From Folioceros fuciformis (taxonomy: Eukaryota), in NCBI GenBank assembly GCA_049999805.1, contig JBNGIO010006030.1:1-64000 (forward strand): a stretch of DNA of 64,000 nucleotides, read 5' to 3'. This document shows positions 1,476-47,858 of this stretch, piece after piece (position 1 is the stretch's first letter; each line of letters starts with the position of its first letter). The notes under the pieces are model-generated. The model saw nothing but the letters and a program-made list of their open reading frames with translations. It searched no databases and was not told the origin of the DNA. A program made the position numbers and the translations under genes.

Positions 1476-2335
1476 CTAGCGACCATAGAGCTTTGCAGAG
1501 ACCGTAACAGATACAGTGGTCATAGGTCCACAATATACAGTGGGCATAGGTCCACAGACGTCATTGTGAACCAATTCAAGAGGTTTACTTTTGTGTTTAC
1601 CTCTTACTCCATGTGGTGACTTCGTTTGTTTCCCATACAAACAGCGGTCACACACACAGAAATCGGAGAAGTCAAAAGCAGGGACGTAACCGAAACGAGA
1701 TAGTATCTTCATTCCTTTTTGAGACATATGTCCTAACCAACTATGCCACAAGAAAACATTTGGCTATTCCGTTACACAAATCACATGATCCTTGACAGTG
1801 GTTACCTGAAGTGAGTACAAAGTGCCACACTTCGATCCACGAGCTAACACAAGAGAACCTTTGGAGATCTTCCAAGAACGATCTCCAAACCAACAGTGGT
1901 AGCCAACGTCATCCAACTGCCCTACGCTAATCATGCTTTTGGTCAACTTCAGAACATGCCTAACATCCTTCAGTACGAATGAAGATCCATTGTCGAACTT
2001 CAGCTGCACATCACCAACGCCTGCAATCTCGCATGCGTAGTTATTTCCAAGCCGAACACATCCTTTCCTAGTAGCATCATAAGTGCTAAACCACTCCCTA
2101 TGTAGAGTAACATGGAAAGATGCTCCAGAGTCAATTATCCAATTAGAGAATAAGTGACTCTCCATGGCTGTCAGTTGTGCAGAATTGAAGGAAGAAGAGG
2201 TAAGAACATCTCCATCATTAACAGAGTTCACCTCGTCATGCTTGACACTGGGACTTTCCTTGTTGTCGCTCTGCTTCTTCTCCTTGCCTTTGTCCTTCTT
2301 GAACTTCTCGCAGTCCCTTCTAATGTGACCCTTTT
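1476..2335 (-). mobile_element. Degenerate Ty1/copia gag-pol fragment (partial zinc knuckle, aspartic protease, GAG-pre-integrase, start of integrase)
   Basis: Motifs KGHIRRDC, WIIDSGASFHVT, LKDVRHV, LWHSWLGHMSQKGM, CDRCLYGKQ and LELVHNDVCGPM occur in copia order. In-frame TAG at 1764-1766. Integrase is truncated near 1530; no RT/RNaseH seen. Confidence 0.9.
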
Positions 2336-5197
2336 GAGGGGAGATGCTATGTCGGGGCTGCCATCGATCCACAATGTCACAATCGTCGTCTCCCATAGCC
2401 GGAGTGCCCCCCATGTGTGGGGAGGACACTACAGACCCCCCACTATGCGTGGTGTGGTCGACTAAGCCACACTCCATGGACCCTGTACGCTCGGAGTCGT
2501 CTTGCAAGCAATCACCACCCTCTGTGTTTGCCATACCCTCCACCAATCCAGCAACATCGACAACCCCTGCCTTTGCTCGATACACTCTGACCATGTGTTC
2601 CATCATCTGCACGGCTGGATCCCATACATAAAGCAGCATAGTCTGAGTCTGGTGAGAGCTCTGCGACGTTGTACTGCCCGGTGGGAAGATCAGTGGGTCG
2701 TCGGTGAGCAATGCCGTAGGCGAGCCCCACTGGAATCGCTCAACGAAGCACCCTGGCCCCAGGCTACTCCTATCCAGGTGAAAGAGATGGGCGACAACAT
2801 TCAATATCTCCGCGGCCATAATACGAGGCTCAAAGTCTGACCCATTGTACGTTGCACCTACACGCATCGATGACGGCACATGTAGCTCCACCACAGTGCA
2901 GTCGGAGGATGTTATTTTCCTGGCTTGCATGGGCACGCCCCCATCAAGTGGCTCAATCGAGAATTCTGGGAAGTCGGGGTTCAGAGGAACCATTATCTTC
3001 AGCTTCTTGATGTGCACGCGCACAAGCGGGCTTCTTGCAACCATCGCTCGTTGCCTCCTCCTAGGTGATGGGGTGCCAGTGATGTGATTTCGTCGCAGCG
3101 TCATGGGTATGTTGCCGGCCGCTGCTCTCATGGTGTCCTCCGATGGTGGACGCGGTGAAATCTGTGGAGTGTGTGCGGGCGAGCGGGGCACTCCCCGTGC
3201 TACCACCATGGATGCACTCCCAGTAGCTGGTAGGCGTCCTCGCGGTTTCAGCCAACTCTGACATATTGTGCTCACACTCGACACTTGGAGCACTACAGGT
3301 CCATCAAGAGTGTAGCAGACCGTGCTACGAGCAGATGGTGCCGGGGTCACGGGTTTTGCCGCCGGTGTGGTAAGCTGTGGCTTTCGGGATGCCTAACGTT
3401 CGCGATTGGTCAGTGGGTCACCCTGGAACACATTGTCCTCATCTTTCTCCTCCATTCTCCAATCAGCAAGGATGGAGTCACCATTGTCGACGACAACATT
3501 CAGACGCCGTTGGCGCTCTGGCCTCCCTTCCACGGACATTTTGATGTCGATAGCGGCTGCACTTCTCTCTCCCCGGGTGCCGTGTCGCAGAGGGAACACG
3601 ATTTGTTCGCAGATGTAGCGGTTTGTGGATATGGAGTGCGTTCAGTTGCTGGGCGGGAGGGTGTGAGCATGCCCCACCCTCTCTCCATACGCCCATCGCG
3701 TACGGAGAGCATGGGTTCACTACATGGGATATCTGCATGCGCCTACCAGCCGCGCTAAACAATATGGGGTTCAGCAACCCTTAATACTGCCATTAAGAAG
3801 TCGGCGCTAAACGCAGATGTTTAAATCCCCTCCCTCATCAACTAAGGATGCCAGCCATTCTGCCGCGACACTTCACACTGAAAGTTGCCTGTCACACCAA
3901 GCTCGGGGTTTAGTGCCAAATGATTACTTGTAGATGGTAGCATATAATATCACTGCCACCCATAAGAGAGTGTGTCCCCGTCCACCCGAAGGCACTCCCA
4001 ACCCCGATCATACGGGTACTTGGGTATAGGGTGTGGGTTTGTGTTCGGTACCCACGTTTGCTGGAAATATCGCGGCCGCCATTCTGGATTATCAGTATAC
4101 AACTATTTAAACACGTACCATGGCGCGGCAATGGGTGACATATATAGAGGTCAAATAGGACATAATATATGTTGTTCCTCAAAAGTAATTCCAAAAAACT
4201 ATGATATGACATTCATGCATTTTGTAGTGTGTTATCTTTCTCTTTTACAATTGTATACACCCAAAAACAAAACACCATCACTTCATGAATTCAAACAACC
4301 ATGAAATATAACCCTAAACCCTAAAAACCCTAGGAGTCTGCATAGAAGGTGATAGTTTGCGAGAGGCTTAGTCACGGCGATGGGGAACCATGTGCGCTTC
4401 CAGATAGAGAAAGCCTTAGAGCGAGCAATACGGGCGGCGTTGAACTATGAGGAGTCCAACACGAGTGGTAGAAAGAAGTCAGGAAAGGAGGAGAGGTGAA
4501 TTCGTGATGGGAAGAAGTAGGAACAGAGGAGAAATAAGATAAAAGCATTCCTCGACATCGGAGGATGACTCGACTAAACCCTAAACCCTAACCTGCTATG
4601 GAGTGCCGGAGGACTGTGCAGTTGGCATTTGTAGCAAGCAAACCAAACACATATGCTTGACAGGCCTCAATTCTCACCAGGGCTATGCCGGCAACCCCCG
4701 TCGTGCCTCGGCCCGCTCTTATGCACTCCCTCTGAACACCTATAGAAGACATATTCGCACATTTGTAGAAGAAGAGGGGCAGAAGGCAAGAGTCACGCAT
4801 AGCATGCCCAAGAGTGCCCCTTTGTAAGCCACATGTGAGCTAAATAGGTCAAGATCTGTGGAGGACTTGAATGCATATGCCGGATTATAGGTTGACGGCC
4901 AATTCACAGCGAATTTCGATCAGAAATTGGCCAACATACGAAATCGATCAGCAATACAAGCAGGCCATCGCCGCGCACCCCTTGAAATGAAGAGTGTGTC
5001 CTTGGTTTGGGACAACGACACAATCCATGTCCCATTTGGTGCAGGACCGATTTCATACGTTTGCCAATGGGGAAATGTAGAGCTTGGGGTTGAAAAGTGA
5101 GTTTTCTTCAAGATATCCCAAAAAAAAAAAAAACATAGTTGCAATTATAGAGTGTCTACTTTAGCATTGCATACATGAATGTAGTGCAATACCCTAA

Positions 5198-5956: not shown

Positions 5957-6339
5957 ATGCCATAAACTGGATCTATACAAGATATTCCCGTTTTGGAGGG
6001 CATTAGTATGGCACGGGGCTCAGGGTTTAGAGTTTACCGTTTAGGGGTTAGGGCTCAGGGTATAAGGGTTTTTTGTCGATCCGAGGAAACGTCTTTGAGG
6101 TGGCCTCCACACAATTTGTTGCAAATGCATTTGCTAATTGTCTAGTTTGGTGCTGGCCCTCAAACTCGCGTACGCGCTAAAGTGGATGCATAACCCGTGC
6201 GATGGTTAATGAACCTAGAGAGAGGGCACGCATCTCCTTTGGCGCATGATAAGGTAGGGAGCGGTGGTAAAGAAGCAAGATTTACATTCTGCAGATGCGC
6301 ATGTCGTCTCTCATTGAGGATGACTACAAATGTGAATGA

Positions 6340-8150
6340 GGTCACGAGTACTGCTCAACCTCAATTGTCCATGGCCAAGGACCATAGCTGATTAGAAGTT
6401 CTTGAGTGTGCATAAATTGTTGGAATGCAATGAGAGCGAGGGGGGCTGAAGGGAGGGTGATGGGCGGTGACAATGAGGCATGGCCATGTATCCACCGAAC
6501 ACACTACATAGTTTAGTAATTTAAGAATGAACTAGGTGATTCCATGCAAGGGGGTGAAGGGAATGTGTATTTATACGAGTTTTCATTTCATTCATAGGGT
6601 ACACGTGCATTGGAAAGACTAGGGTGCGACGTGGGAACTTGAAAATGGGCAATGGCCAATGCCTGCAAAGGATAACAAGATCGCGATGTTGGATGAATAA
6701 AAAACGGCAATGGCCAAGGACTACAATGTACTATGAGTTTGAGACCTAAACCCTAAAAAGGGGGGGAATGCCAATGTCCACAACAGACTACTCGGATACG
6801 AGTTCATATGATTAACACACGTCGATGGCCAAGGAATACATTTGTGTATGAGGTCGCGATTCTGGATCAATCAGACCCGTTGATGGGCATAGACAACAGG
6901 GTCCCACAAGTTCTGAAGATGAGATCCAACAAAATTGAAGATGACCAAGGACTAGAGATGACAACAATATGTTCACAAGTTTGGAGCACTGCAAATTGTT
7001 GATTGCCAAGGACAACAATGTGCTAAAAGTTCTGCAGGTTGGAATAATGAACATGGTCGATGGCCTATGGGTACAATGGGCAACAAGTTTGCATTGTCTT
7101 ATCAATCATGAACGTCGATGGCCAAGGCCTACAATTGTGTATAAGGTCACGAGTTTGGATCAATCTTAAGTTTCGATGGCCAAGGACTATAGTGAAATAT
7201 AAGTTCGCGAGTGTATTTCATTTGCTGCAATGCAATGAGAGTGAGTAGGGCTGAGGGGAGGGTGCTGGGCCAGGACAACAGGGCATAGCCATGAATCCAC
7301 CAGACAAACTATATAATTTAGTTGTTTGTGAATGAACTGGGGCACCCTAAACCCAAAGGGATCAAAGGAATGTGTAATGTGTTCAAGTTTTCGCTTCATT
7401 CCTAGTGTAAAGTGCATGCGATAGAGCAGGGTGTGACTAGAGGACCCGCAAAAGGGCGATGGCCATTGTATTCAAGGACGACCAAGTTTGCGCTGTTGGA
7501 TAAAGCAATTGCGTCAAAGGCCAACGACTCCAATGTACTGTGAGTTTGAGAGTTAGGACCATAAAAAAGGGGGTGATACTAAGCATCCACAACGGTGAAG
7601 AATGATGCAAATTGATATGAATATCAAACGTCAATGGCCAAGGACAACATTTGTGTATAAGGTCGCGAGTTTGGATCAATGAGAGGTGTCGATGGGCAAG
7701 GACTACAGTTCACTACAAGTTCTATAGACGGGATGAATGAAGGTTGAAGATGGCCAAGGACTACAGATGACAACATGTTCACGAGTGTGGAGCACTGCAA
7801 ATTGTTTATTGTGAATGACATCATTGGACGATAAGTTCAAGAGTTTGGATTAATGCACCTGGACGATGGCCTATAGGTACAATGGATCTGAAGTTCGCAC
7901 GGTCCTATTAATGAAGATCGTCGATGGCCAAGGACTACAGTTGTCTAGGTCACGAATGTGGATGAATCTCAATTGTCGATAGCAAAGGACTGTAGCTGAA
8001 TATAAGTTTGCGAGTGTATACCATTTGTTGGAAGCAACCCATTTGTATACACACTACACCAAGGCATTCTTGCAAGGACCACAGATAAAGCTATGCTATA
8101 TTGATGGCCCAGCAAGGACTATAGATGTCATGTCACATCCGAGAACACTT
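6340..8150. repeat. Degenerate tandem duplication (~808-bp period) built from ~60-bp subunits carrying GATGGCCAAGGACTACA
   Basis: Matching blocks at 6421/7226, 6820/7630 and 6960/7769. The motif recurs near 6370, 6710, 6824, 7117, 7175, 7634, 7749 and 7924. Confidence 0.8.
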
Positions 8151-8489
8151 GAAACAAGGAACCTATATATGGTGTTGTGCACATATGTATATATATTGGG
8201 AAATAAATGAGAATATTGTTTTAAGGGTGTAGTGGAGGTTGAGAAGGGCACAATTCACGGTGTTTTGAATCAGTAGTGTGTAGTGAAGAGATGTGATGGA
8301 CATGGGGCGGGGATGGGGGTTGGAGAGGTAGCAAGCCATGCATTTTACGCCACGTGAGGGTAGACGGAGCCGCCACCGAGGCGTGAAGGACAACTGTATG
8401 CCATTATTCAATGACATACTGTAGTATACAAAAAGTTAAGCCCCACCACAGGAGAAGGCGTGTGAAGCTGAAGGGTGTGGGTGGTCAAG

Positions 8490-8673
8490 AGCTGCGGGCA
8501 AGGACATGTTTCCACTCAACAGCTGCGGGCAAGGACATGTTTCCGCTCAACAGCTGCGGGCAAGAACATGTTTCCGCTCAACAGCTGCGGGCAAGGACAT
8601 GTTTCCGCTCAACAACTACGGGCAAGAACATGTTTCTGCTCAACAGTTGCGGGCAAGGACATGTTTCCGCTCA
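8490..8673. repeat. 31-bp minisatellite x6 (AGCTGCGGGCAAGGACATGTTTCCGCTCAAC)
   Basis: Head-to-tail units start at 8490, 8521, 8552, 8583, 8614 and 8645, with no spacers. Confidence 0.95.
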
Positions 8674-9214
8674 GTATCACGTCCTTCACCATGAATGCAG
8701 TGCGTGATGGAAACACAAGCACGTGGATAAACTTGAGAACGCAATCTACGTGCGGGGTAGAGGAGTGTCCGTGTCAATGAGGATGCCCCAAGGGGCAACT
8801 CTTTGGCAGTGGTCATGGTCGTTGTGCATGTTCGTCGTCGATGGTAGGGGACGATTTAGCTCTGCATGATTTTTCTGGTAGGATGATTGTTAGGAATTAA
8901 GCCTTACTCGCTTAGGGTTAATTATGGGATTATTTATATTTAGGTTTTATTATCTAAGGGTCATCTAGTGAAGAGGCACCTAGGCATATATAGACATACT
9001 TTAAACACTCTTTGTAATTATTCTTATCAATTGTCTTATGTTCTTTTCTCTCCTGCTCTTCTTTTCTGGCCATGTCATATTGTCATGTCCAATAATCATC
9101 AATGATACCGCTAAGCTTTCTCAACAATCTAATGCTCTAATGTTTTTTTTGTCTGGGGTGCAGCGGCAAGAAGCTCAGTTTTCCTCGGATTTGGTCATGC
9201 CTGGCAGCCCGCAG
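8673..9214 (+). repeat. Local duplication of 13858-14185 (intron plus first 17 codons of an exon), interrupted by a solo LTR
   Basis: Near-identical sequence from AGTATCAC to GCAGCCCGCAG in both places, including the acceptor GGGGTGCAG|CGGCAAG. Confidence 0.95.
8888..9101. mobile_element. Solo LTR (214 bp) with 5-bp target-site duplication ATGAT
   Basis: TGTTAG...ATCA termini, with ATGAT at 8883-8887 and 9102-9106. The paralogous segment has a single ATGAT at 14072-14076 (empty site). A TATA-like TATATA lies inside. Confidence 0.85.
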
Positions 9215-9892
9215 GAACATATGCAGCGACATATCGGCATGGATGAGGAGGGAGCCCAATGTATTGCAAATGCTCTTCCGCTCTGTGCCTCGCTCCGGAA
9301 GCTTGCCTTGGATGATGAATATCCAAGTGGGCGTAATGCAGTTAGGGGTTCCATACAGAGCAGCCTGGGGCCCATGAGCAATGTGTTGAAACTGGCTTTC
9401 ACTCGTGCTGATGCTAAGGCTGATGCCCCCATATCTGGGGTCACCAAGGTGACGTGGGGTATTGGGAACAGAGAGGAGCCAAGCCTGGCCGACGCGCTGG
9501 CTGGAATGTTGCACACCAACGATTGTATCACGGACCTTACGATCAGCTGTTTTGTTGTCAAGTTTGGCCTGGACGCCTGGCGCCACAACTCCACCCTCTC
9601 CACACTTAAGTTGTTCTACTATTACTTTGACGTGTCGTTAAGTAGATTTTCGATGTCGTTTCTGGAATGCAAATCATTACGCAAGCTGTTTTTGGAACGG
9701 ATTGAGTGGCCCTCTTTCATGGCAGTCTTTGGCGAAAAATACATCTTTGAATGCGTTGTACATTGGGTATTGCTGGGCACTTGACGATAAGCTGTTTAGA
9801 GAGTTGATGTAGTCCCTCCAAGTCAACACCACTTTACAGAAGACGAGACAAACTGTAGGAGAGAGGGAAAGCAGGCCATCATCAACGCGACG

Positions 9893-11314
9893 TTGGCACG
9901 CAATGTTAGTCACAACGCCTACTGGCCTTTGCTTTTGGAGGGGCAAAAGGCTGTGAAGCCTAGGGTCGGCCGCCTTTTCCTGTGCGGTGCACCTTACGCA
10001 GGGAAGACCACTCTTCGAAACACCATGATCACTGCATGGCGCGCATCGCAACCACACACATCACATTCTACAGGAGCCGCATCAGCCAACCAAGTCCAAT
10101 TGCGGGAAGAACTATCTCTCGCTTGGAGACGTCCCCGGTTCGGTAATGTTCCACGCACAGGAGCGGCACCACCTAGCCAGGTAAGTACTGTCCCCAGAAC
10201 GGAAGGCATAGAAATCGAGGTGCTACGCAACGACGACGAGATGGAAGTTACCATTTGGGATCTGGCTGGACAAGCTCACTACCGAGTTCTGCAAGACTAC
10301 TTGTTCCCCAGCTTCAACCAGACATGTGTCTTCTTGTTCACATTCAACCCATTTGATGCCGGCAAGCCTAGTGGACCCCTCCCGTCTACTGAAATGGTGT
10401 TGGAAAAGTTCACAAGCAGCTTCAAGTTCTGGCTGAGATTCATCCACTCTAATTCTCGCAATGTGGGTTCCTGTTGGCCTCAGGTATTTGTGGTTGTCAC
10501 TCATAAGGATCAGATGCAGGCTATGGACGTTGAAACACTAGTCAGACTGCTGCAACAAGTCGTGGACGAGTTGGCCAAGGCTTTTGAGGAGGTACTTCAT
10601 GTTACAACAACCCATCTATTCTTCATGGATGCTCGATCTACGTACACCACGCACCCGGTGCTGGAGGAACTATTCCAATCGTTTCGACAGCTATTTGCAC
10701 TTCCTCTGTTTTGGGTTCCGGAGCCATGCAACCGACTCAGTGTTGTTTTGACACAGTGGGTATCTCAAAATCTAGCTGAGCCTATTGTCACCAAGGAGCG
10801 ATGCAAAGAGTTGTTTCAACAAGATGATGAGCTACGCCTTCAAGCAATTCTTGCCCATCTCCACGATGCAGGCAGAGTCATCTGGTTCCAAGATGTAGAT
10901 GTTGTGGTGGTGAATCCACAATGGATTAGTCATTCATGTCTGGGCCGCCTCATTGAGCGCCTAGCCAGACATCATTCCTTGGGAATATTCAAGGATGGAT
11001 TTGTTGCTACAACTTTGCTGCATGGAACCTTGAACGACATCCTCGACCACACGCAAGTGCAAGGCATTCGTGCTAAATATCTGGTATTATTGATGAAGAG
11101 ACTAAACTTGTGCTACGAAGATCATGCCAATCGCAGGCCAGGATTCTTCGTTCCCTTCACCTTGGATGACGCTGAAGGTAAAGGTCTTCAAGGGAAACGA
11201 CAGTTGGATTGGAAGGGTGGTGCGGCGTCCAAGTACAGTTACGTAGGGAGGCGGCTACAATGCCGAGATGGAAGAAAAACGTTTCTTGGTCCAGGCTGCT
11301 TTGTAAGATTCCAG
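9893..11314 (+). CDS. Roc GTPase-COR exon of the TORNADO1-like gene (open frame)
   Basis: 484-aa ORF with all Roc G-boxes and COR-A/B motifs. It ends at the donor TTCCAG|GTACGT. Confidence 0.85.
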
Positions 11315-11704
11315 GTACGTTGCCTTCTGAGCTGTCTCTTTTGTTAGTCATTTAACCTCTCTTGTGTTTCATGACATGGCCAATGGCTGTGCATTGCAGG
11401 TCAAGTAGTAGATGTAGTTCGATGGGCTCTGCGGTATGCAGTCTCATCAGTATAGCATTGCGCGTAACTTGATCATATTTAACTACGATGGTATGGACGT
11501 GTTTTTGGAGAGCAGTGGGGATATTTGGGACGAGACCGGGGACATTGGGGATCGTGTTGACATTTTGATGAGGTCACTCAAGAGCAAAGAGAAACGATCC
11601 AGTTTCTCCAGCAGAGGGTTGTTGCGGAACTGAGAGCATTTTGTGCCTCTCCTGAAGGTAGTCCTGGAGTTGACCTAGTAGAAGGGATCATCCGGACTGA
11701 GTGT

Positions 11705-12943
11705 ATGGAGAAGCTCACACTCTGTATTCACCGACACATTCAATGGGTTGTCAACCAGCATTTGATGAAGTGCTTTCTACATCATCACAAAAGCCATGCA
11801 GGGCAGACTTCCTCCGGCTCGAAGTCGTCCGATTATCAATGGTGCTGGCCAGAAATGCCTGAAGCCGGTCTATCCCTTGTATACGAGAAAGCCAGGGATC
11901 TGTTAAGTCGCGAAGAGGTGCAGTCTGCTTTGCAGCAGTGTGGGCCCCGTCCATCCCTCGACGCAACGAGTGGCCCTTCAGCTGGAACAAGTCAGCCACA
12001 GGTGCCGCCTATACTGAAGTTAGGGAAGGAACCTTCATATCCAAACGAAAGGGCGAAAGCAGGTCACCGGAGAGGGCTTGCAATGATAGTCAGCATGGAA
12101 GACGACAGGGATGGAGGACAGGTAGACAGAGGGCGACTTGAAGCTCTCTTCCAGATGTTGAATTTTCATAGAGATATCGTGGTGAACGGTCCTAAGGAAG
12201 GGAAATCAAGGTTGAAAGCCATTCTCATGGTCCCTCGCCTAGCAGAAGACGACTGCTTTCTGTTTTGCGTGAACGCCCATGGTGGGACTGATGAAGACGG
12301 AAGACAGTATGTTTGCTCAGGTGAAGCAGACGAGGCGGAGAAGCTTTATGTTGAAGATATTTTGAATCCCATCGCTGAATGTACGTATTTGGCACACAAG
12401 CCGAAGGTGGTTGTCATAAATGCCTGTCGAGGCATTGGGCGTCTTGTCAAAAGCATGAAACCGCAGGAGTCAAGCACTGCCAACCCTGCCACTACCAGCA
12501 AAGCCAAGGTGTCAGAGGTTGAGGGAAGCCAAGCACAGGGGTCGGGCCCCGCCGACCTTGCCACTACCAGCAAAGCCGACGGGTCAGACGTTCAGGGAAG
12601 CCAAATTGTCAGAAACAGAGTTCGACTATTGTCTTCTGTGAAAGACTGCCTCACAGTTTTCTCCACCAGTCCTGGAGATGCATCTTTGAGAGATGTCGAC
12701 GAAGGCACAAACTTCATCATAGCTTTGATGCTTGCCATCGTGGAGGGCTCTGATACCGAAGATGTCTTGACCATTCTGAGAAGCGTGATTGGCAAGGCGA
12801 CGGACAAGGAGGTCCAATACAAAACCAAAGAAGGGGACTATAAGAAGAAATATCAGTGTCCTGAGTTGCGCAGCACACTTACCAAAAAGCTATACTGGTC
12901 TCGACCACCCCCGACTCCTGTCATGCCTGGCTGTAAGGAGTAG
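11705..12943 (+). CDS. COR C-terminal segment + linker + caspase p20/p10 domain (domain ~12038-12898)
   Basis: RRGLAMIVS, DRDGGQVD, DCFLFCVNAHG (His 12278), HKPKVVVINACRG (Cys 12425), DCLTVFSTSPGDASLR, GTNFI and QCPELRSTLTKKLYW are collinear with the caspase consensus. Confidence 0.88.
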   Translation: MEKLTLCIHRHIQWVVNQHLMKCFLHHHKSHAGQTSSGSKSSDYQWCWPEMPEAGLSLVYEKARDLLSREEVQSALQQCGPRPSLDATSGPSAGTSQPQVPPILKLGKEPSYPNERAKAGHRRGLAMIVSMEDDRDGGQVDRGRLEALFQMLNFHRDIVVNGPKEGKSRLKAILMVPRLAEDDCFLFCVNAHGGTDEDGRQYVCSGEADEAEKLYVEDILNPIAECTYLAHKPKVVVINACRGIGRLVKSMKPQESSTANPATTSKAKVSEVEGSQAQGSGPADLATTSKADGSDVQGSQIVRNRVRLLSSVKDCLTVFSTSPGDASLRDVDEGTNFIIALMLAIVEGSDTEDVLTILRSVIGKATDKEVQYKTKEGDYKKKYQCPELRSTLTKKLYWSRPPPTPVMPGCKE

Positions 12944-13721
12944 CATGTGGCCAAGGCCTGTAATTCCTTCAACATATAAGCACGAATTATTGTACTTCGT
13001 GGAATTTCACGTGAGCAGGTTCCCCTCCGCCTCCGAGCCAGGTTGCAGGACAGGATAAAATCGTACGGAACATACCTCCTGCATTCAATTCAGATGCACG
13101 AACGCACGAAACACAAGGCGACGACTACCAAGGACGGACATATTGGGGGTACAAATGGGAGAAAAAGAAATTTTTTTTTGAACTCCATTATGAAGGTCTC
13201 ATTCCGTCGGACCGTACTCTCACATACGTATGTATGTAGTTCGATGCAATGAATGTAGACCTTGGAAATCAAACAGTGTACGATGACAGATGTACATGTA
13301 TCTCAGAATAGGGCTTGGTACGTTCTGTTAGAGTTGTATTCACTGTTTTGTGACAATGTCATCTGTCTTCTCTGCTTTTTAAAGGGCTTAGGATCAAGCC
13401 AACGACGCCGGGCTTAGGGTTTAGACGGGAGGCTAGAGTCGGAGAGGTGATGGACCAATCCTTGAGTACGTAAACTTGTTCAAGTCCTTCATGGACCGAT
13501 CTCCGTCACGGCACAGGTATAGCTCCTGATTACGGACCTTGGTGCCTTGCGAGTAGCCTTCGAGTCTAAATCCAAAATTCAGACGTGTTGTACCCCCGCA
13601 TTTGAATGCCTGACCGCGTGGACGTCTCGAGGTTCCCGGAGCGATGACCGCCATGCACACTGGCCTAGCAGTAACCTTGCCCTGCTGCAACATCTTGCAG
13701 AACCGATTTTGAGCCTGGTCC

Positions 13722-13850
13722 AGAAGAGCTATCTGCCTGATTGAAATTCCAATTGATGCCGGGGCAAACGAAAGGAGGCTCGAAGAGAAGGGCTATCTGC
13801 CTGATTGAAATTCCAGTTGATGCCGGGGCAAACGATAGGAGGTTCGAAGA
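13722..13850. repeat. ~64-bp direct repeat x2
   Basis: AGAAG(A/G)GCTATCTGCCTGATTGAAATTCCA..TGATGCCGGGGCAAACGA.AGGAGG.TCGAAG occurs twice in tandem. Confidence 0.9.
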
Positions 13851-15784
13851 GGAGGTAAGTATCACATCCTTCACCATGAATGCAGTGCGTGATGGAAACA
13901 CAAGCACGTGGATAAACTTCAGAACGCTATCTACGTGCGAGGTAGAGGAGGGAGTGTCCGTGTCAATGAGGATGCCCCAAGGGGCAACTCTTTGGCAGTG
14001 GTCGTGGTCGTTGTGCATGTTCGTCGTCGATGGTAGGGGACGATTTAGCTCTGCACGATTTTTCTGGTCGGATGATACCGCTAAGCTTTCTCAACAATCT
14101 TGCGCCCTCATGGTTTTTTTTGTCTGGGGTGCAGCGGCAAGAGGCTCAGTTTTCCCCGGATTTGGTCATGCCTGGCAGCCCGCAGAATCACCACTGGTTT
14201 TTTTGGGACCCCTCCAGGCAGCAGACGCGTGAGGACATGTCCTCTATCTTGAGCTCCAGCTCTGGAGATGGCCAGTCCACGCCCTTGAGTATACAAGACT
14301 TGAATATACCAGACTTCACTGTTGCAAGTCCTTTCAGCGATGTGATGCTCATTAGTGCAACTCACGAGGAAAGGTTTGGATGCAAGTACAACCTGTCGCA
14401 AAGATCGCCTGTGCTCAACCGTATGTTTCACAGTAAGATGAAGGAATCGTTGCCAACTCAGGACATGGTTTCGATTCCGTTTCCGAACATGAGCACGGAA
14501 GCATTGAATTTCCTTCTTGAATATACCTTCACGGGGGAAATCTTGTTTCACAGGTATTATCAGAGTCCTGTGGAGGTGATTCATGTTTGCCGTTATTTTC
14601 AGCTGGATAAGGAACCTACGGAATTGCTACAAGACATAATGTATCACCTGCAGCTGGCCTATACGGATTCTCTCGTGACCTACGGTCAGATTAGTGACAG
14701 GGCTGCCGAAACTCTCTCCAAAGCTCTGGAATATCTGTCGATGGACGAAGACAAAGAGCTCTTTGACTATCTGCTGAAGGTTCTTTCGTCCAGATATCTT
14801 CAGTCCATCAGTCCTCAGCGTCTCACCGCTGACGCACTGCGTTTCTTGCTCTCACGCTCACTCAGGACTGATGCTGTTGAGATCACACCATTTGCTACTA
14901 CAGAGGTTGCCACCTGTTTGTACTTGATGTTGTGGGCAGCTCAGCAACTGTCTGGAACTGCACTGGACGAGATGCAGGAATTTGTCAACAAGGTGGAACT
15001 TGCTGCGCGGATGAAAACTAAGCTCAGAGCTAAGCTCAAGCCAGAGCTTTCAAACCAGATAGCTCCTATTGTTCTTCCATTTTTGTCTCTTATCGACTTG
15101 AGACTTGTAAGAGCTAGGGATGTTGCTCTCGTCATCGAACCTCTGAAGGTCATCCCGCAAAACATGATGTTTAAAGCTCTATGTTACCATGCGGCTCATC
15201 GAGGCAAGTCCACACAAATATTTTACAGGGGACCATTTGTGGTGCAGTGGGACTGTAATGCTCGATCCACAAGGCTGCACGTCTGTAACACGGATGATGG
15301 CAGGCAGTTGAGTTGCAGAGGTTTCGCAGGTGGTTACGCAAGAACAGTTTCCCCAGCGAGGGAAGCTGGGATTTATGAATGGGAGGTTCGGATCAAGCGT
15401 AAACGTCTGTGGTGTCAGATTGGAATTGGCCTTTGCACGGACCACGGAAGCTCAGATGCTTTCAGTTACGCAGTTTGGCTGGGGAACCAGCCCTATGGAT
15501 GGATCCTCGACAACAACAGCAGATTCTGGCACAATGCAAGTTGCGTGCCAGTCAATTCCAACGTCACCTTCACAGGGCACGGGCGTGAGGCAAGAGTAAT
15601 GGTACGCCTGGACATGAACGCACGGAAGTGTGAATTCACGTACGACAAATGTATAGTGGTTGCCCCTTGGACAAACATTCCGGATGAGGTCTATCCTGCG
15701 GTATCCTTCCACAAATCTGAGGGTAGCAGCAGAACCTGGGTGGAGATATTGCCCGCCACTGGCCATGGACGAAGGGTGGACTGA
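13756..15784 (+). CDS. BTB/POZ-BACK-like + C-terminal SPRY/B30.2 domain protein (exons 13756-13854, 14135-15784; alternative start Met at 14237)
   Basis: BTB: SDVMLIS...LSQRSPVLNRMFHSKMKES...EALNFLLEYTFTGEI. SPRY: GIYEWEVRI...IGIG...GWIL...VRLDMNARKCEF...VYPAVSF. Donor GAG|GTAAGT at 13855 and acceptor at 14134 join in phase 0. Confidence 0.82.
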
Positions 15785-16268
15785 GAGAAGCTATTCCTTG
15801 TAGATACGTTTCGAGGGCGTCCTTGCTTTCTCCTTAGGATATGAACACCAGGTTTGCACCGGTAGGCAAGTGTCCGTTCCGTCCTCTGACGACTCCCCTG
15901 ACGGTTCAAAAGTTGCTGGCTAAGAAATTATCTTGTTCCGATTAAGTTAAAGTTTTTCGCTTCGAATAACTTGCCCTGTAGACGCGAAGTTGCCGTCACA
16001 CCCTCATGTAGTAGATCTTCTGTTCCACAGGATCCTTTGACAAAGCTTGTTACGCGACTCCGTGCCCTGGTAGTTGTTGTTTATTACCTGTACATACTAG
16101 GCCACTCGTATCCTCTAGGAATGCATACAAAGAGACAGTCGATGGAAGTTGTCCGAAAGCGTGCAAAACTTGCTTCGCCAGTATGGTATCAAATGATTCG
16201 TGGAGGGTGACTGTCTGTTACCGACACACAGTGTGTTATTCTAATGGCCTGCACTGCATGGCATCTGT

Positions 16269-18006
16269 TCAGAAAGGCTCCCCAACATCTGCGGGTACGT
16301 CCTTGTAAGGAAGGCCCTGTTCCATAGCATCAAAGTGGCCGAAAAATGAAGAGCCTCCAGAAGCCCAGTTGTCATTCAACTCCCCCGGTTTAGAATGCTT
16401 TTGCCTGTAGACGTTTCTTCGACAGAAAATCAGAAGCTTGCCGTTGGCCTCACACACAGAGCCTCACAATTCACAAACTGTACTCACCATTCCTGATCCT
16501 CGATCATCTCATCGGTCATGCCCAATGCCTTCAACTCCGCGGGAGAGTGATGCACCAGCAGGCTGTATCTGTTCAGACAAGACGAGACTGCTCACTTGGC
16601 AGGACTTTGCATGGAGGGACATTCCTGCACGTCATAGCTCTGTCCGCCCCCAGATACTGACTGTCGTACTATACGTTTGGCAGGAAGGACCACGACAGCC
16701 GGGAAAACAAGCATGGCGTGAAACAACGAGCATACCTGCCACCAGGGCCCAACTCCATCACAACCATTCCGGTATTACCAAAATTGTACAGGCCCTCAAA
16801 CTCTTTCACTGTCCATTTGTACCATCTCATGAGAAAAACACGCAGAGTCAGCCCATGGGAAACTAGGACGAGGTTCATATCCTTTGTCCGGGCGCCCGGT
16901 TTGCCATGAAATCGACCGAAATCTATATCTGATCGAAGAGTTTCCCTGAACGCTGTCCACGGCAAGCGAACACGATGAGAGAGTGACCCTCTGCAGCATT
17001 GCTCGACTACTGAAGCAACAAATGTAGCAGGCAGGCAGGCAGTACCCTCAGTCACATTGCATGAGCACATTCATAGTCACCTGTAATTCTATCGTAGACA
17101 TCAGACGCTGATTCTCCATTTGGAAATCGGTAGAAGAAGCGCCCGTATCTGAGTCGTATCTCCTTCTCTACTCTCATTTTCTCCCTATCCTGAAAGTTTC
17201 CTGGCAACGTTGAAACACAATAGTGAGGAGGAATGTTGCAGTGGCTTCACCATGCCATACATGCCGGCAGCTCTGTAGCTTGGGGTGCTAGGGAGTTTAA
17301 CAACCAAAAAAGGACAAGAACAAGTCAGCTTACCAAAATCTTGCTCACGAAGGCGGGGCTCCTCTCTCACACCAGCTATGCGAGAGCGTTCAAAGGCCGT
17401 GCCAATGCCTCTCAGAGTTTGCAAAGTGCGCTTGTACGGTGAAACATAAAAATATGTCCTCCAATCATCGCACTCATCCCCCTCGATTAAGCGCCGAATT
17501 TTGCTCCCACACTCCACAGCCTGATACCATCCTTCCTTGGTGAGCGGAATCTTGGAGTCCGGAATGCGAGTGTAGTAACTCTCGTCAATGTTCCCCAGGC
17601 TCTGCCCATGCCGAACCAAGATAATCCTGCGCGGCCGCATTATTATACCTGTGCCTGCTGGCTGGTCAGCAGGTGCAGAGATGGGCAAAGTAATACTCCC
17701 GTTCACCGACTTCTCGTCGAACCACTTCGATCTCCACTTCTTGCGAAGGTGGTGATCTTCCTGAACCGGTGACCCATCCCGACACAGTACTTGGTGCCGC
17801 GGTTGACGCTTGCCCATCCTCTGCTGCCTCCGGAGCTGCAATCGCTTCCATTCCGTTAAATTCTGAGGAGTAGCCTCCTCCAGGACTGCGAGACTGCGAG
17901 GTGGAGCCGCCGCGGCTGTCCCACAGCATTTGGACCCAAGACAACTGCTGGGGCAATCAAAACGGGCCTTGGGAGAAATTTGATGCGGCAGCTGAAGCGT
18001 AGCCAT
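16269..18006 (-). CDS. Phosphoglycerate mutase-like histidine phosphatase (AT74/At3g05170-like), 5 exons, probable transit peptide
   Basis: RIILVRHGQSLGN, VSPYKRTLQT, EEPRLREQDFGNFQ, RFFYRFPNGESASDVYDR, LVSHGLTLRVFLMRWYKWTV, with GT-AG introns. Confidence 0.92.
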
Positions 18007-46600: not shown

Positions 46601-47858
46601 ATGCGAGTAATAATAAAACTTGCGCAGGCCTGCGCCTGCGGCATGGATTCTATTCTACCCGGGGTTTTTGCTCTGGCTCTGGCTCTGGCTCTGCGCTTGT
46701 CCCATTCTCCAAAACGACAGGAGCGCGTCTGCCATCGTCTGACGCTGCTGCATCTCCACACTGTGGGATACAGGAATACAGCTTACATACTACAGTGTGG
46801 ATGGGAGAGAAAAGGAGGAGAAAAGCTGTGGTGAGGGGAAAGGTAAAGAATTGCGCGGAGTCAGGCATGGCGATGTGCAGTGAGGTGGAATAGCATGGAA
46901 TGGACTGGATGTCACTGTTTCATCATTCGTACCCCCCGGAAGAGGAAGAGGAAAGGTTGGGTGATGGGTCATGGAGGCTCATGCCCCATGGCTGAACTTG
47001 CTTACAGGCGCAAAACGCGAGGAGGCCAAAAGGGGGCTCAACTCTCTAATCATGGCGCAGGGCTGGAGGGTGAGGCCATGTGGAGGGCCCAGCCCTCCTG
47101 CTGCCCCCTCTTCTCGGGCACCACAGTGTCCAGAGGCCAGGAATAAAAAGGAGGTACATACATCAAGCACGCCTGTAATACAGTGCTCTCCACTGCACAG
47201 TGCAGGAGCAGCAGCAGCAACAGTAGCAGACTCTCTCTCCCACCAAGCAGAGCCGGGAAGCGCTCCACAAGTCCAGATGGACCTGGCAATGGCGGCAGGC
47301 CCTCCTTGTTGGCACGGAAAAGGGGAGGGAGGGCAACTTCTGATATCTACATAAAGCTCATGGTGGGGCAGTCCTCGGCGTCCAAAAGAGGTCTGGAAGA
47401 GAAGTCGAAGAGGAGAGTCTTCCAAGAGGAAGGGAAGGGGAAGAGGAAGAGGAAGAGAGATCCTGGTCCAAGAAGACAGAAAGACAGACAGGAGGAGAGA
47501 CAAGAGGACGCGAGGCAAGAGTCATTGCGGTGGCCACCCCAGTTCCCACTGCACTCCACTCCACTCCCGGCCTGGGGAGAGAGAGAAGCGGGGCAATCGG
47601 CACTGGGAGGTGGTTATTCCCGCCCGTGCAGGCTCACATTCAGCCACCGGGCCATGAATGGAGGTGGAGCCAGCGGGGGCATGAAGGATGGGGGAATGCA
47701 GCCGCACCCGCAGCTGCACCGGAGGAGAAGGCGAGGTGGGGCTGCCAGGGCGTGAAGGTGGAAGCTTGTCCTGGCTCCTCCTCCTCCTCATCCATCTGCC
47801 TTTCCTGCAGCCCTACCTTGGATTGCAGAACTAGGCCAGGGCCAGGCCATATCCGCTC

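What the first reader, a model, noticed from the sequence alone, without database searches (positions are those of the whole stretch)
9164..12943. LRR-Roc-COR-caspase architecture: candidate Roco-type immune receptor/cell-death executioner
Seen: TORNADO1-like LRR, Roc GTPase and COR motifs run into the caspase. The frame from ~11592 (ETIQFLQQRVVAELRAFCASPEGSPG..., COR-type) to 12943 is continuous, so the COR-caspase junction lies within one exon. Established: COR mediates nucleotide-dependent dimerisation of Roco proteins, and initiator caspases are activated by induced dimerisation. Inference: this is a single-chain sensor(LRR)-switch(Roc-COR)-protease module analogous to an NLR/inflammasome. 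TRN1-like genes in this lineage may form an expanded family with swappable C-terminal effectors.
Basis: partly seen in the sequence, partly recalled or inferred. Interest (0 to 1): 0.92.

Follow-up and report, generated by a model that had tools for sequence, protein, structure and literature searches.

The report
Broken plant Roco-GTPase gene with caspase tail
A land-plant locus joins a TORNADO1-type repeat sensor and GTPase switch to an animal-type caspase protease; this copy is damaged, but it belongs to a multi-copy, transcribed family, and hornwort transcripts show the same switch-to-caspase junction, which is striking because plants are usually said to lack caspases.

Summary
Window 9197-12943 (+) carries, in order, an RNI-type LRR remnant, a Roc GTPase, COR-A, COR-B and a caspase domain (Pfam Peptidase_C14 1.4e-20). 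The caspase is animal-type by sequence, fold and Atlas neighbours. It keeps His (NAHGG), Cys (NACRG) and two residues aligned with caspase S1 arginines.

The Roc-COR part is closest to bryophyte TORNADO1-like Roco proteins (Marchantia, 7e-76).

This copy is probably a pseudogene. It has two frame shifts plus a TAG at the LRR-Roc junction, TAG codons just after an 85-nt intron, and a 1-base deletion after 11590 that all RNA contigs lack.

It is not a one-off. Summed contig depth is about 15-fold that of the flanks in two DNA runs, an RNA run covers the whole body, and hornwort transcripts plus two unnamed contigs carry the same COR-B-to-caspase junction.

LRR-Roc-COR-caspase is already catalogued in bacteria (PMC8195603), so this is a new plant variant of a known kind. 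Immune or cell-death function is inferred, not shown.

The parts
8673..9219 (+). 5' copy of a two-copy direct repeat (8673-8887 and 9102-9219, split by a 214-nt AT-rich insert at 8888-9101). It corresponds to intron 2 and the first 58 nt of exon 3 of the neighbouring BTB gene.
   Evidence: the repeat finder families D6, D7, D8, D11, 88-98% identity to 13858-14190. BTB exon borders come from the RNA contig joints.
9162..9219 (+). Shared exon start with an ATG at 9197-9199. The acceptor ..tgcag|CGG at 9161/9162 is equivalent to the BTB acceptor 14132/14133.
   Evidence: Sequence. The joint 13852>14133 is used in the X2 contig. Use of 9162 itself was not observed.
9197..9854 (+). RNI-type LRR remnant of about seven degenerate repeats. 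It is broken by a frame change 2>0 near 9660-9715, a TAG at 9810-9812, and a frame change 0>2 near 9840-9857.
   Evidence: Three-frame translation. tblastn to Marchantia P0026 368-430 and P0016 532-556. Pfam finds no LRR.
9857..10640 (+). Roc GTPase domain: P-loop GAPYAGKT 9986-10009, DLAGQ 10259-10273, THKD 10499-10510. A roughly 85-residue insert lies between G1 and G3.
   Evidence: Pfam Roc 24.5 bits, below the cut-off of 27. tblastn to P0026 440-1130, 29% identity, E 7e-76. Motif coordinates.
10781..11155 (+). COR-A domain
   Evidence: Pfam PF16095, 3.1e-10, 40.5 bits, above the cut-off of 35.3; residues 328-452 of ORF 9800-11344.
11250..11765 (+). COR-B domain, interrupted by the intron and by the lesions listed below.
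   Evidence: tblastn to Nothoceros P0011 (8-121 on 10994-11320; 134-196 on 11436-11645, frame 0; 179-293 on 11591-11929). P0011 residues 98-237 match Pfam COR-B at 2.4e-4, 21.4 bits, below the cut-off.
11315..11399 (+). 85-nt GT..AG intron
   Evidence: The joint 11311>11397 (cut +3) is seen in the RNA run X2 only: 1 contig, depth 23.2, shorter side 25 letters. It is absent from DNA runs X1 and X3. Splicing restores length agreement with P0011 and P0026.
11406..11417 (+). TAG TAG ATG TAG directly after the observed acceptor: three in-frame stops in frame 0. An unobserved acceptor at 11417/11418 would bypass them in frame.
   Evidence: Sequence. One contig each in X1 and X3 carries extra letters at 11405-11409. 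X2 shows no indel there.
11590..11591 (+). 1-nt deletion relative to the other copies. It shifts the frame 0>2 inside COR-B.
   Evidence: An extra C behind 11590 is present in 313.5 of 313.5 depth in X2, 95.8 of 95.8 in X3 and 83.7 of 262.8 in X1. The frames are shown.
11766..12037 (+). Post-COR stretch still homologous to TRN1-like proteins (to about 11938), then a low-confidence linker.
   Evidence: tblastn to P0011 up to residue 293 and P0016 up to residue 1055. pLDDT below 50 for residues 62-154 of the model.
12038..12898 (+). Caspase domain (p20 + linker + p10). S1-type Arg codon 12107-12109 (DRDGG), His 12278-12280 (NAHGG), Cys 12425-12427 (NACRG), second Arg 12689-12691 (SLRD). Predicted dimer strand at residues 433-443 of ORF3.
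   Evidence: Pfam Peptidase_C14 1.4e-20 at 12071-12895. PDB phmmer best hit 6wi4 caspase-3, 6.9e-9. Foldseek best hit 6wi4_A, 1.2e-15, TMt 0.79. Coordinates. Alignment.
12459..12602 (+). 72-nt tandem duplication (81% identity) inside the inter-subunit linker. It is Ser/Thr/Ala-rich and contains Asp residues.
   Evidence: the repeat finder family D9. pLDDT below 50 for residues 291-354.
12941..12943 (+). Stop codon. The high-depth (multi-copy) zone ends near 13111.
   Evidence: Depth bins.
13858..14190 (+). 3' copy of the direct repeat, inside intron 2 and the start of exon 3 of the expressed BTB gene (exons ..13513 | 13698-13852 | 14133-16405).
   Evidence: X2 contig record 15 (3861 nt) has GT..AG joints with sides of 92 and 155 letters, and DNA contigs run through both introns.

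Best explanation
The locus is a decayed member of a recently amplified, transcribed gene family in a land plant. The neighbouring genes are embryophyte genes, and the nearest relatives of both halves are hornwort and liverwort sequences.

In this family the tail after COR-B of a TORNADO1-type Roco protein (RNI-type LRR, Roc GTPase, COR-A, COR-B) has been replaced by an animal-type caspase domain.

Shown:
- the domain order
- the intact catalytic His/Cys and two Arg positions aligned with caspase S1 arginines
- the caspase fold
- multiple copies in DNA
- RNA cover
- the same COR-B-to-caspase junction in hornwort transcripts

Inferred: in intact members the LRR senses a ligand and the Roc nucleotide state controls the COR dimer. 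COR-B then brings two caspase domains, which sit about 90-110 residues downstream, into the canonical back-to-back dimer. This switches on an Asp-directed protease that cleaves downstream targets or itself. The multi-copy, birth-and-death pattern and the bacterial analogues suggest this happens in immunity or cell death.

The window's own copy cannot make this protein. It has a shortened LRR and its frame is broken at the LRR-Roc junction and inside COR-B.
For: Domains: Pfam COR-A, Roc and Peptidase_C14; TRN1-like homology E 7e-76 over 768 aligned residues to Marchantia P0026.

The caspase is animal-type:
- All 60 PDB sequences shown (of 147 at E<=0.01) are caspases.
- All Foldseek rows shown are caspases, TMt 0.65-0.80.
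- Atlas neighbours are metazoan caspase clusters, scores 0.92-0.94.
- The dyad and both Arg columns are kept in most of the bryophyte-type clade.

Family and expression:
- Summed word depth over 9136-13111 averages 119 against 7.7 on the flank in X1, and 177 against 12.3 in X3. There are 362 and 419 pieces laid at 90-99+% identity.
- X2 behaves as RNA. It has a spliced 3861-nt BTB contig, zero depth over 8000-9135, and about 0.3 over 13112-13395.
- X2 covers all 14 bins of the gene body.
- Every X2 contig at 11590 carries the frame-keeping base (313.5 of 313.5).

Same junction elsewhere: 3 of 3 tested fragments (Nothoceros P0151, unnamed P0001 and P0002) have N-termini matching COR-B of plant Roco proteins, E 1.7e-18 to 2e-8 for each fragment's best match. 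These are followed by Peptidase_C14.

Tree: the window sits in a 16-row clade (SH-aLRT 93, quick method) with all 4 named bryophyte rows. All 5 named animal rows fall outside it.

Homodimer model: score 0.53, best of 3 controls 0.13.
- The mark was reached by 21 of 30 proteins solved as pairs of one chain and 0 of 23 solved as single chains (microbes).
- On eukaryotes it was reached by 17 of 29, but by only 1 of 7 with no older solved relative.
- The runs agree in at least 36% of contacts, and partner pLDDT is at least 65.
- The interface is residues 433-443, symmetric about 437. Caspase dimers are solved, so this pass shows likeness and may come from memory.

Precedent for the logic: bacterial LRR-Roc-COR-caspase and Roc-COR-CHAT proteins.
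Against: - No full-length intact member was seen. Three word-index searches found nothing. Among 33 long caspase hits only 1 (amphioxus) has a COR-B, and no Roc or COR-A appears among the 25 of 34 families shown.
- No single RNA contig listed spans COR-B to caspase in this species.
- The intron joint has a shorter side of only 25 letters.
- The abundant RNA contig over 11397-11677 has no indel at 11405-11409. The expressed form may therefore share the TAG-rich stretch.
- Whether the LRR-end lesions are private to this copy is unknown.
- Among the 40 listed differences between copies, 14 are synonymous against 10.5 expected (P 0.13). This gives no clear sign of purifying selection.
- Summed contig depth is not a copy number (tool note).
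- Nothing bears directly on ligand, substrate, GTP control or cell death.
- One relative (P0001) has lost the catalytic Cys.
Confidence: 0.6

Rival explanations
1. The whole family is non-functional cargo. A dead Roco-caspase fusion was amplified by segmental duplication or a mobile element and is transcribed passively. The domain conservation seen in other species belongs to different, functional genes.
For: - The window copy is broken in several places and is bracketed by a direct repeat.
- Copies are 90-99% alike over the gene body only.
- The synonymous excess is not significant: 14 of 40 against 10.5 expected.
- The abundant RNA contig may share the TAG-rich stretch at 11406-11417.
Against: - RNA contigs all carry the frame-keeping base at 11590.
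- The 460-codon COR-B-caspase frame is open.
- The dyad, both Arg positions and the C-terminal dimer strand are intact.
- The intron is retained in DNA, so these are not processed retrocopies.
- The same junction is kept at 30-39% identity in a hornwort and in two unnamed sources.
Confidence: 0.2
2. The window copy is actually intact, and its breaks are assembly errors or unrecognised introns.
For: - Single-base indels are typical assembly errors.
- A downstream acceptor at 11417/11418 would bypass the TAG codons in frame.
Against: - The version without the extra C at 11590 is present in DNA run X1 (about 179 of 262.8 depth). X1 may be the assembly's own sample.
- The TAG at 9810-9812 sits inside a stretch that is 60% identical to Marchantia P0016.
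- The candidate GT..AG intervals around 9766-9812 are only about 33-55 nt long.
- Two further frame changes would be needed.
Confidence: 0.07
3. Intact members are developmental or housekeeping signalling proteins, like TORNADO1 in leaf patterning. The caspase domain would act as a limited-proteolysis module, not as an immune or death executioner.
For: - The Roc-COR part is nearest to TRN1-like proteins.
- TRN1 has a patterning role (Cnops 2006, as cited in PMC4104024; passage read).
- Some animal caspases have non-death roles (recalled).
Against: - The multi-copy pattern, with diverged and decaying copies, is unusual for a developmental regulator.
- Bacterial and brown-algal LRR-Roco families with effector tails are read as immune candidates.
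Confidence: 0.12
4. One-off dead fusion, or foreign (animal) DNA in the assembly.
For: Nearest non-bryophyte relatives of the caspase part are metazoan: 7 of the 30 proteins looked up by name.
Against: - The same open frame holds plant-type COR-B and the caspase.
- The locus lies among plant genes (PLS-PPR with E motif, phytochelatin synthase C-domain).
- It is multi-copy and covered by RNA contigs.
- There is a bryophyte-type caspase clade with Marchantia, Riccia and Nothoceros members.
Confidence: 0.02

Closest known systems
Prokaryotic AP-GTPase (Roc)-COR conflict proteins with N-terminal LRR and variable C-terminal effectors, caspase among them (Kaur, Iyer, Burroughs, Aravind 2021, PMC8195603; passages of section 15 read)
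   Same: Same order of modules: fast-evolving LRR, Roc-type GTPase, COR, then an effector slot that can hold a caspase. Same proposed sensor-switch-effector logic.
   Different: Those are bacterial and were predicted by computation only. Here the Roc-COR is nearest to plant TRN1-like proteins, and the caspase is nearest to bryophyte and then metazoan caspases. This looks like an independent fusion inside plants, not an imported bacterial gene. The paper's source-data files could not be seen (supplements closed).
Runella Roc-COR-CHAT protease of a bacterial gasdermin system (Johnson et al., bioRxiv 10.1101/2021.06.07.447441; passages read)
   Same: A Roc-COR GTPase fused to a clan-CD caspase-like protease that triggers cell death by cleaving a substrate.
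   Different: That protease is CHAT, not Peptidase_C14, and it cleaves after Leu247 (figure legend read). It is bacterial with a gasdermin neighbour. No gasdermin was seen here; the neighbour is a BTB gene.
Plant TORNADO1-type Roco proteins (e.g. Marchantia Mp5g17320, P0026, 1413 aa; Nothoceros P0011)
   Same: RNI-type LRR end, Roc, COR-A, COR-B and about 85 residues beyond COR-B are homologous (29% identity over 768 aligned residues to P0026; 40-44% to P0011).
   Different: TRN1-like proteins continue into a non-caspase C-terminal region (P0011 residues 300-605 have no significant Pfam match). Here that region is replaced by a caspase. The LRR is about half as long, and the gene is multi-copy.
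Animal caspases and their induced-proximity platforms (apoptosome, inflammasome)
   Same: - Caspase fold, with best PDB matches to caspase-3, -7, -8, -9, Dronc and CED-3.
- His/Cys dyad, xACRG motif, Arg positions aligned with the S1 arginines, and the C-terminal dimer strand.
   Different: - There is no CARD, DED or PYRIN prodomain.
- The oligomeriser is in the same chain and is a Roco GTPase, not a STAND ATPase.
- The motif is NACRG, not QACxG.
- The inter-subunit linker is long and repetitive.
Liverwort alpha/beta-hydrolase-caspase proteins (Marchantia polymorpha Mp6g00900/PTQ31690.1, 807 aa; M. paleacea KAG6554914.1, 1113 aa)
   Same: The same bryophyte-type caspase clade sits at the C-terminus of a larger protein.
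   Different: The N-terminal partner is a SERAC1-like hydrolase, not LRR-Roc-COR. The Cys motif is NSCRE/NACR. I found no published study of them.
Branchiostoma belcheri KAI8482183.1 (P0040): COR-B + caspase + GT4-conflict
   Same: A COR-B domain (Pfam 4.3e-10) lies directly upstream of a caspase in a eukaryote.
   Different: It is an animal protein, with no Roc or COR-A in the model and an extra glycosyltransferase. Its caspase lies outside the bryophyte-type clade.
Brown-algal and SAR LRR-ROCO genes, group 3, with a C-terminal peptidase (PMC11378527; passages read)
   Same: Expanded eukaryotic LRR-Roc-COR families proposed as immune receptors, some with a protease tail.
   Different: The peptidase there is IPR009003, not a caspase, and the lineage is unrelated.

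Membership tests
Roco proteins | Roc GTPase with G1, G3 and G4 motifs | tested here: met
   GAPYAGKT, DLAGQ and THKD are present. Pfam Roc scores only 24.5 bits, below the cut-off of 27. Homology to Marchantia Roco P0026 gives E 7e-76. In this copy the P-loop frame has no start codon of its own.
Roco proteins | COR domain directly C-terminal of Roc (COR-A and COR-B) | tested here: met
   COR-A scores 40.5 bits, above the cut-off of 35.3. COR-B is assigned only by homology to P0011, P0026 and P0018. P0011's own COR-B match is sub-threshold at 21.4 bits.
TORNADO1-type plant Roco | N-terminal RNI-type LRR followed by Roc-COR, with best similarity to plant TRN1-like proteins | tested here: met
   tblastn to P0026 and P0016 includes the last LRRs. 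Pfam detects no LRR here or in P0026. No Arabidopsis TRN1 sequence was available for direct comparison.
TORNADO1-type plant Roco | TRN1-type C-terminal region after COR | tested here: not met
   Homology to P0011, P0016 and P0026 ends near 11938. A caspase domain follows instead.
Caspases (MEROPS C14A; name recalled) | Caspase/hemoglobinase fold with p20 and p10 parts | tested here: met
   AlphaFold2 model: domain blocks mostly at pLDDT 72-93. Foldseek: all rows shown are caspases, best hit 6wi4_A at 1.2e-15, TMt 0.79.
Caspases (MEROPS C14A; name recalled) | Catalytic His-Cys dyad in the HG and QACxG contexts | tested here: met
   NAHGG and NACRG align with THG and QACQG of 6wi4. Gln is replaced by Asn.
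Caspases (MEROPS C14A; name recalled) | Basic S1 pocket (two Arg) giving Asp specificity | tested here: inconclusive
   The Arg of DRDGG and the Arg of SLRD align with PRNG and SWRN of the coral caspase. Both are kept in most of the clade. Their identity with caspase-3 Arg64 and Arg207 is recalled. Cleavage specificity was not tested.
Caspases (MEROPS C14A; name recalled) | Dimer through the last beta-strand | tested here: inconclusive
   Homodimer model: score 0.53 against a best control of 0.13, interface at residues 433-443. The pass may come from memory of solved caspase dimers.
Metacaspases and orthocaspases | Closest similarity to metacaspase-type domains, with Arg/Lys specificity | tested here: not met
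   This is indirect. No metacaspase appears among the 60 PDB sequences shown, the Foldseek rows shown or the Atlas sets shown. No direct alignment to a metacaspase was made.
NLR / STAND receptors (inflammasome, apoptosome, plant NLR) | Central STAND NTPase (NACHT or NB-ARC) | tested here: not met
   Pfam finds only a Ras-like Roc GTPase and COR. Any resemblance is functional analogy only.
Prokaryotic AP-GTPase-COR conflict systems (Kaur et al. 2021) | LRR + Roc + COR + variable C-terminal effector in one chain | tested here: met
   The domain order is met. The host is a plant and the nearest Roc-COR relatives are plant proteins. It works like these systems but is not filed as a member.

The most novel reading that the evidence does not exclude
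Hornworts and liverworts possess true Asp-directed caspases, contrary to the textbook view that plants have only metacaspases. They deploy these as built-in executioner domains of innate immune receptors. In this lineage a TORNADO1-derived Roco GTPase acts as a single-chain 'inflammasome': its COR dimeriser switches the caspase on. The family has expanded and turns over like an NLR cluster.
Probability: 0.3. Interest if true: 0.9.

Novelty: new variant of a known kind. Interest (0 to 1): 0.7.

Why it matters
Papers on plant cell death routinely state that plants lack caspases. One example is the abstract of PMC12521494, seen in the search listing.

Here an animal-type caspase domain sits in a plant genome in frame with a plant Roco GTPase. 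It has an intact dyad, Arg positions aligned with the caspase S1 pocket, and the canonical dimer strand. Relatives occur in Nothoceros, Marchantia and Riccia.

Six full-text searches and one targeted read found no paper describing plant caspase-domain proteins or a plant Roco-caspase. The Marchantia proteins are in public databases under automatic names.

If intact members are active, this has three consequences:
- It offers a genetically tractable test, in bryophyte models, of whether caspase-type proteolysis operates in plant immunity or death.
- It gives a eukaryotic counterpart to the bacterial LRR-Roc-COR-caspase and Roc-COR-CHAT systems.
- It provides a natural experiment on GTPase-controlled caspase dimerisation that bears on how COR domains (as in LRRK2) transmit nucleotide state.

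It also raises the question of where bryophytes obtained this domain.

Tried and rejected
- No whole genome is held for this window, so paralogues could not be fetched or counted directly.
- The search for homologous proteins gave nothing three times: ORF3 with 'longer', ORF3 with 'near', and alignment A1 with 'longer'. This is weak evidence, because relatives at 30-39% identity do exist.
- Two metagenome scans (A1, then P0004) confirmed nothing.
- The look-up of sequencing runs listed no RNA holder on record. X2 is only marked 'RNA?'; I treat it as RNA because of its spliced BTB contig.
- Run X8: nothing laid. X2 has no cover over 8000-9135.
- Earlier findings by place and by sequence: nothing.
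- Pfam LRR models: no hit at E<=1 in the window pieces or in Marchantia P0026.
- The Roc-COR ORF against PDB sequences: 0 hits.
- Codon-position count of the 40 listed variants was 14/9/17 (1st/2nd/3rd, by hand). The synonymous test gave 14 against 10.5 expected, P 0.13. Both are inconclusive, and only 40 of 323 variant places were visible.
- I considered an LTR retrotransposon or processed retrocopy to explain the flanking repeat and the copy number. I set it aside because the repeat is BTB intron/exon sequence present about twice, DNA copies keep the 85-nt intron, and I saw no poly(A) tract at the 3' border. This is not a rigorous exclusion.
- I considered short introns at 9766-9812 to remove the stops. 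The candidates are only about 33-55 nt, and the stretch is homologous coding sequence.
- The origin of the caspase domain (old inheritance or transfer) is unresolved. The tree is unrooted, built by the quick method, and most rows are unnamed.

Full report
**What is there**

On the + strand three long frames, all starting at positions that are 2 mod 3, cover 9005-9784, 9800-11347 and 11561-12943. Pfam results:
- COR-A in the second frame: 3.1e-10, 40.5 bits, above its cut-off.
- Roc in the second frame: 24.5 bits, just under its cut-off of 27.
- Peptidase_C14 in the third frame: 1.4e-20, at 12071-12895.
- No family in the first frame.

The GTPase motifs are GAPYAGKT, DLAGQ and THKD, at 9986-10009, 10259-10273 and 10499-10510. 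The window is from a land plant. It also holds a PLS-type PPR gene with an E motif, a phytochelatin-synthase C-domain, BTB genes and a copia Pol.

**The Roco half**

tblastn with relatives finds one locus only, 9666-12928.
- The best match is Marchantia polymorpha Mp5g17320 (P0026, 1413 aa, named a COR-domain protein). It aligns at 29% identity over 768 residues, E 7e-76, from the end of its LRR region through Roc, COR-A and COR-B.
- A Nothoceros (hornwort) transcript product, P0011, is 40-44% identical over COR-A/COR-B and about 85 residues beyond.
No Arabidopsis TRN1 sequence was available for comparison.
- Pfam sees no LRR here or in P0026. The LRR call rests on about seven RNI-like repeats and on matches to the last repeats of P0026 and P0016.

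**The caspase half**

- phmmer against PDB sequences gives 147 hits at E<=0.01. All 60 shown are caspases. The best is a coral caspase-3 (6wi4, 6.9e-9), then Dronc and caspase-8.
- An AlphaFold2 model built on 11 sequences has mean pLDDT 64. The domain blocks are mostly at 72-93 and the two linkers are below 50.
- In Foldseek all rows shown are caspases, TMt 0.65-0.80.
- The ESM Atlas neighbours are metazoan caspase clusters.
- The alignment places NAHGG on THG and NACRG on QACQG. It places the Arg of DRDGG and the Arg of SLRD on PRNG and SWRN. From memory, these are the caspase-3 Arg64 and Arg207 positions of the Asp-binding S1 pocket.
- This predicts Asp specificity but does not show it.

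**State of this copy**

The gene is not one open frame.
- Near 9660-9715 the frame goes from 2 to 0.
- The frame-0 stretch is 60% identical to Marchantia P0016 over 25 residues and holds a TAG at 9810-9812.
- Near 9840-9857 the frame returns to 2.
- An 85-nt GT..AG intron lies at 11315-11399. It is spliced in run X2 only: one contig, shorter side 25 letters, absent from both DNA runs. Removing it brings the length into line with P0011 and P0026.
- Directly after that acceptor come TAG TAG ATG TAG (11406-11417).
  - One DNA contig each in X1 and X3 carries extra letters there.
  - X2 shows no indel there.
  - So I cannot say whether expressed copies avoid these stops.
  - An unobserved acceptor at 11417/11418 would bypass them in frame.
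- After 11590 the window lacks one base. That base is present in all X2 depth (313.5 of 313.5), all X3 depth (95.8 of 95.8) and 83.7 of 262.8 in X1. With it, frame 0 runs into the caspase frame.
- The Roc frame has no Met before the P-loop.
- Only about 210 residues of LRR precede Roc, against about 430 in P0026.

I rate 'pseudogene' at about 0.8.

**The family**

- Contigs of two DNA runs of the same species label lie on 9136-13111 with summed word depth averaging 119 (X1) and 177 (X3). The single-copy-like flank 13112-16500 averages 7.7 and 12.3. There are 362 and 419 pieces, spread over 99+, 95-99 and 90-95% identity. The tool warns that this is not a copy number. It does show many diverged copies of the gene body.
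- X2 is only guessed to be RNA by the tool. Its behaviour supports that guess:
  - Its 3861-nt contig over the neighbouring BTB gene skips two GT..AG introns (sides 92 and 155 letters) that DNA contigs run through.
  - It has no depth over 8000-9135.
  - It has about 0.3 depth over 13112-13395.
- X2 covers all 14 bins of the Roco-caspase body (depth 178-1463).
- No listed X2 contig spans COR-B to caspase. The pieces are short, as expected for a repeated family.

**The same junction elsewhere**

An exhaustive phmmer search of 1.84 billion representatives with ORF 11561-12940 gave 394 hits at E<=1e-3. Of the best 150, 129 match the caspase part and 21 match only the COR part.

Thirty were looked up by name:
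- 11 are hornwort or liverwort proteins.
- 7 are metazoan.
- 12 are unnamed.

Three fragments carry a COR-B-like N-terminus followed by Peptidase_C14: Nothoceros P0151 (with its shorter form P0008) and the unnamed P0001 and P0002. For each fragment the best match to a plant Roco COR-B has E 1.7e-18 to 2e-8; 3 of 3 tested. The Nothoceros ones are assembled transcripts.

Liverworts carry the same caspase type behind alpha/beta-hydrolase domains (Marchantia P0009 and P0013; Riccia P0024).

For the quick ML tree I kept 120 of the 129 caspase hits, plus the window. I dropped 9 that lacked a p20 start or fell outside the 150-420 residue limits. The window falls in a 16-row clade (SH-aLRT 93) with all 4 named bryophyte rows. 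All 5 named animal rows fall outside it.

Among the 33 hits of 450 aa or more:
- CARD occurs in 6.
- DED occurs in 4.
- COR-B occurs in 1, the amphioxus protein P0040 (COR-B + caspase + GT4).
- No Roc or COR-A appears among the 25 of 34 families shown.

So the window, although broken, is the only contiguous record I saw of the full LRR-Roc-COR-A-COR-B-caspase order.

**How it most likely works (inference)**

COR-B is the Roco dimer interface, and nucleotide state controls the monomer-dimer cycle (recalled from work on the C. tepidum protein). Initiator caspases are activated by proximity-induced dimerisation (recalled). Here the caspase follows COR-B after about 90-110 poorly ordered residues.

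A homodimer model of residues 156-460 scored 0.53 against a best control of 0.13.
- The mark was reached by 21 of 30 solved homomers and 0 of 23 single chains.
- On eukaryotes it was reached by 17 of 29, but by only 1 of 7 without an older solved relative.
- The runs agree in at least 36% of contacts, and pLDDT is at least 65.
- The symmetric interface on the last strand (433-443) is the classical caspase interface. The pass shows likeness and may come from memory.

The inter-subunit linker is long, carries a 72-nt tandem duplication (12459-12602) and contains Asp residues that could be self-cleavage sites. This last point is speculation.

**Surroundings**

The copy is bracketed by a direct repeat: 8673-8887 plus 9102-9219 against 13858-14190, 88-98% identity by segment. 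The repeat is intron 2 and the start of exon 3 of the expressed BTB gene. Both frames share the ATG context at 9197 and 14168. How this arose is unexplained.

**Comparison with what is known**

- Kaur et al. 2021 (PMC8195603, passages read) describe bacterial proteins with fast-evolving LRRs, AP-GTPase (Roc), COR, and at least 24 alternative C-terminal effectors including caspase.
- Johnson et al. (bioRxiv 10.1101/2021.06.07.447441, passage read) name the Runella gasdermin protease Roc-COR-CHAT.
- Brown-algal ROCO families, some with a C-terminal peptidase, are proposed immune receptors (PMC11378527, passages read).
- A 2014 review states that among photosynthetic eukaryotes only flowering plants have ROCO genes (PMC4104024, passage read). 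The bryophyte hits here show that this is outdated.
- Earlier notes of this scan on bacterial LRR-Roc-COR-caspase-like genes reached the same 'known kind' verdict.
- I found no paper on plant caspase-domain or plant Roco-caspase proteins (searches; read). Subscription journals and supplements were not searchable.

**Verdict**

This is a new plant variant of a known sensor-GTPase-caspase design, carried here by a decayed family member. Interest is 0.7.

Noticed in passing
window 13422-16405 (+): An expressed BTB-domain gene (Pfam BTB 8.2e-9; 604-codon frame 13970-15784) has two 5' GT..AG introns (13514-13697 and 13853-14132), seen in a 3861-nt X2 contig. Its ATG context is duplicated in front of the Roco-caspase copy.
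   Followed up: partly
window 10589-10755 and 11181-11245: Two further GT..AG joints are seen in the RNA run X2 only. They skip 165 and 63 nt (both multiples of three) inside the Roc-COR coding region, with sides of 28 and 24 letters. They could be exitrons or paralogue deletions.
   Followed up: no
window 11576-11966: One contig in each of X2, X1 and X3 jumps from 11576 to 11966 (389 nt, intervening letters unknown). Some copies therefore differ or lack the post-COR stretch just upstream of the caspase.
   Followed up: no
window 6324-7947 and 8454-8701: A satellite-like array with a 58-nt period (12 copies found), and a 31-nt tandem array directly upstream of the 5' repeat copy.
   Followed up: no
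window 8888-9101: A 214-nt AT-rich insert is present only in the 5' copy of the direct repeat. Its DNA depth is 38-73, so it is repeated elsewhere. It may be a small mobile element.
   Followed up: no
window 47835-50189 (+): A BTB frame and a BTB-POZ_ANK-like frame (6.9e-86) lie in a 59-63% GC block, well above the window average.
   Followed up: no
window 59042-62125 (-), 33514-34452 (+), 1767-3392 (-): A PLS-class PPR gene with an E motif, a phytochelatin-synthase C-domain exon, and a copia-type Pol fragment. These mark the window as land-plant DNA.
   Followed up: partly
proteins P0009, P0013, P0021, P0024 (Marchantia, Riccia): Liverworts encode animal-type caspase domains. Several are fused to SERAC1-like alpha/beta-hydrolase domains. 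They are annotated only automatically ('Caspase family p20 domain-containing protein').
   Followed up: partly
protein P0040 (Branchiostoma belcheri KAI8482183.1): An amphioxus protein combines COR-B, a caspase and a conflict-system GT4 glycosyltransferase.
   Followed up: no
protein P0001 (unnamed Logan contig): A COR-B-caspase relative has His retained but the catalytic Cys motif replaced (VISGHG where others have NACRG). It is possibly an inactive decoy-type member.
   Followed up: no
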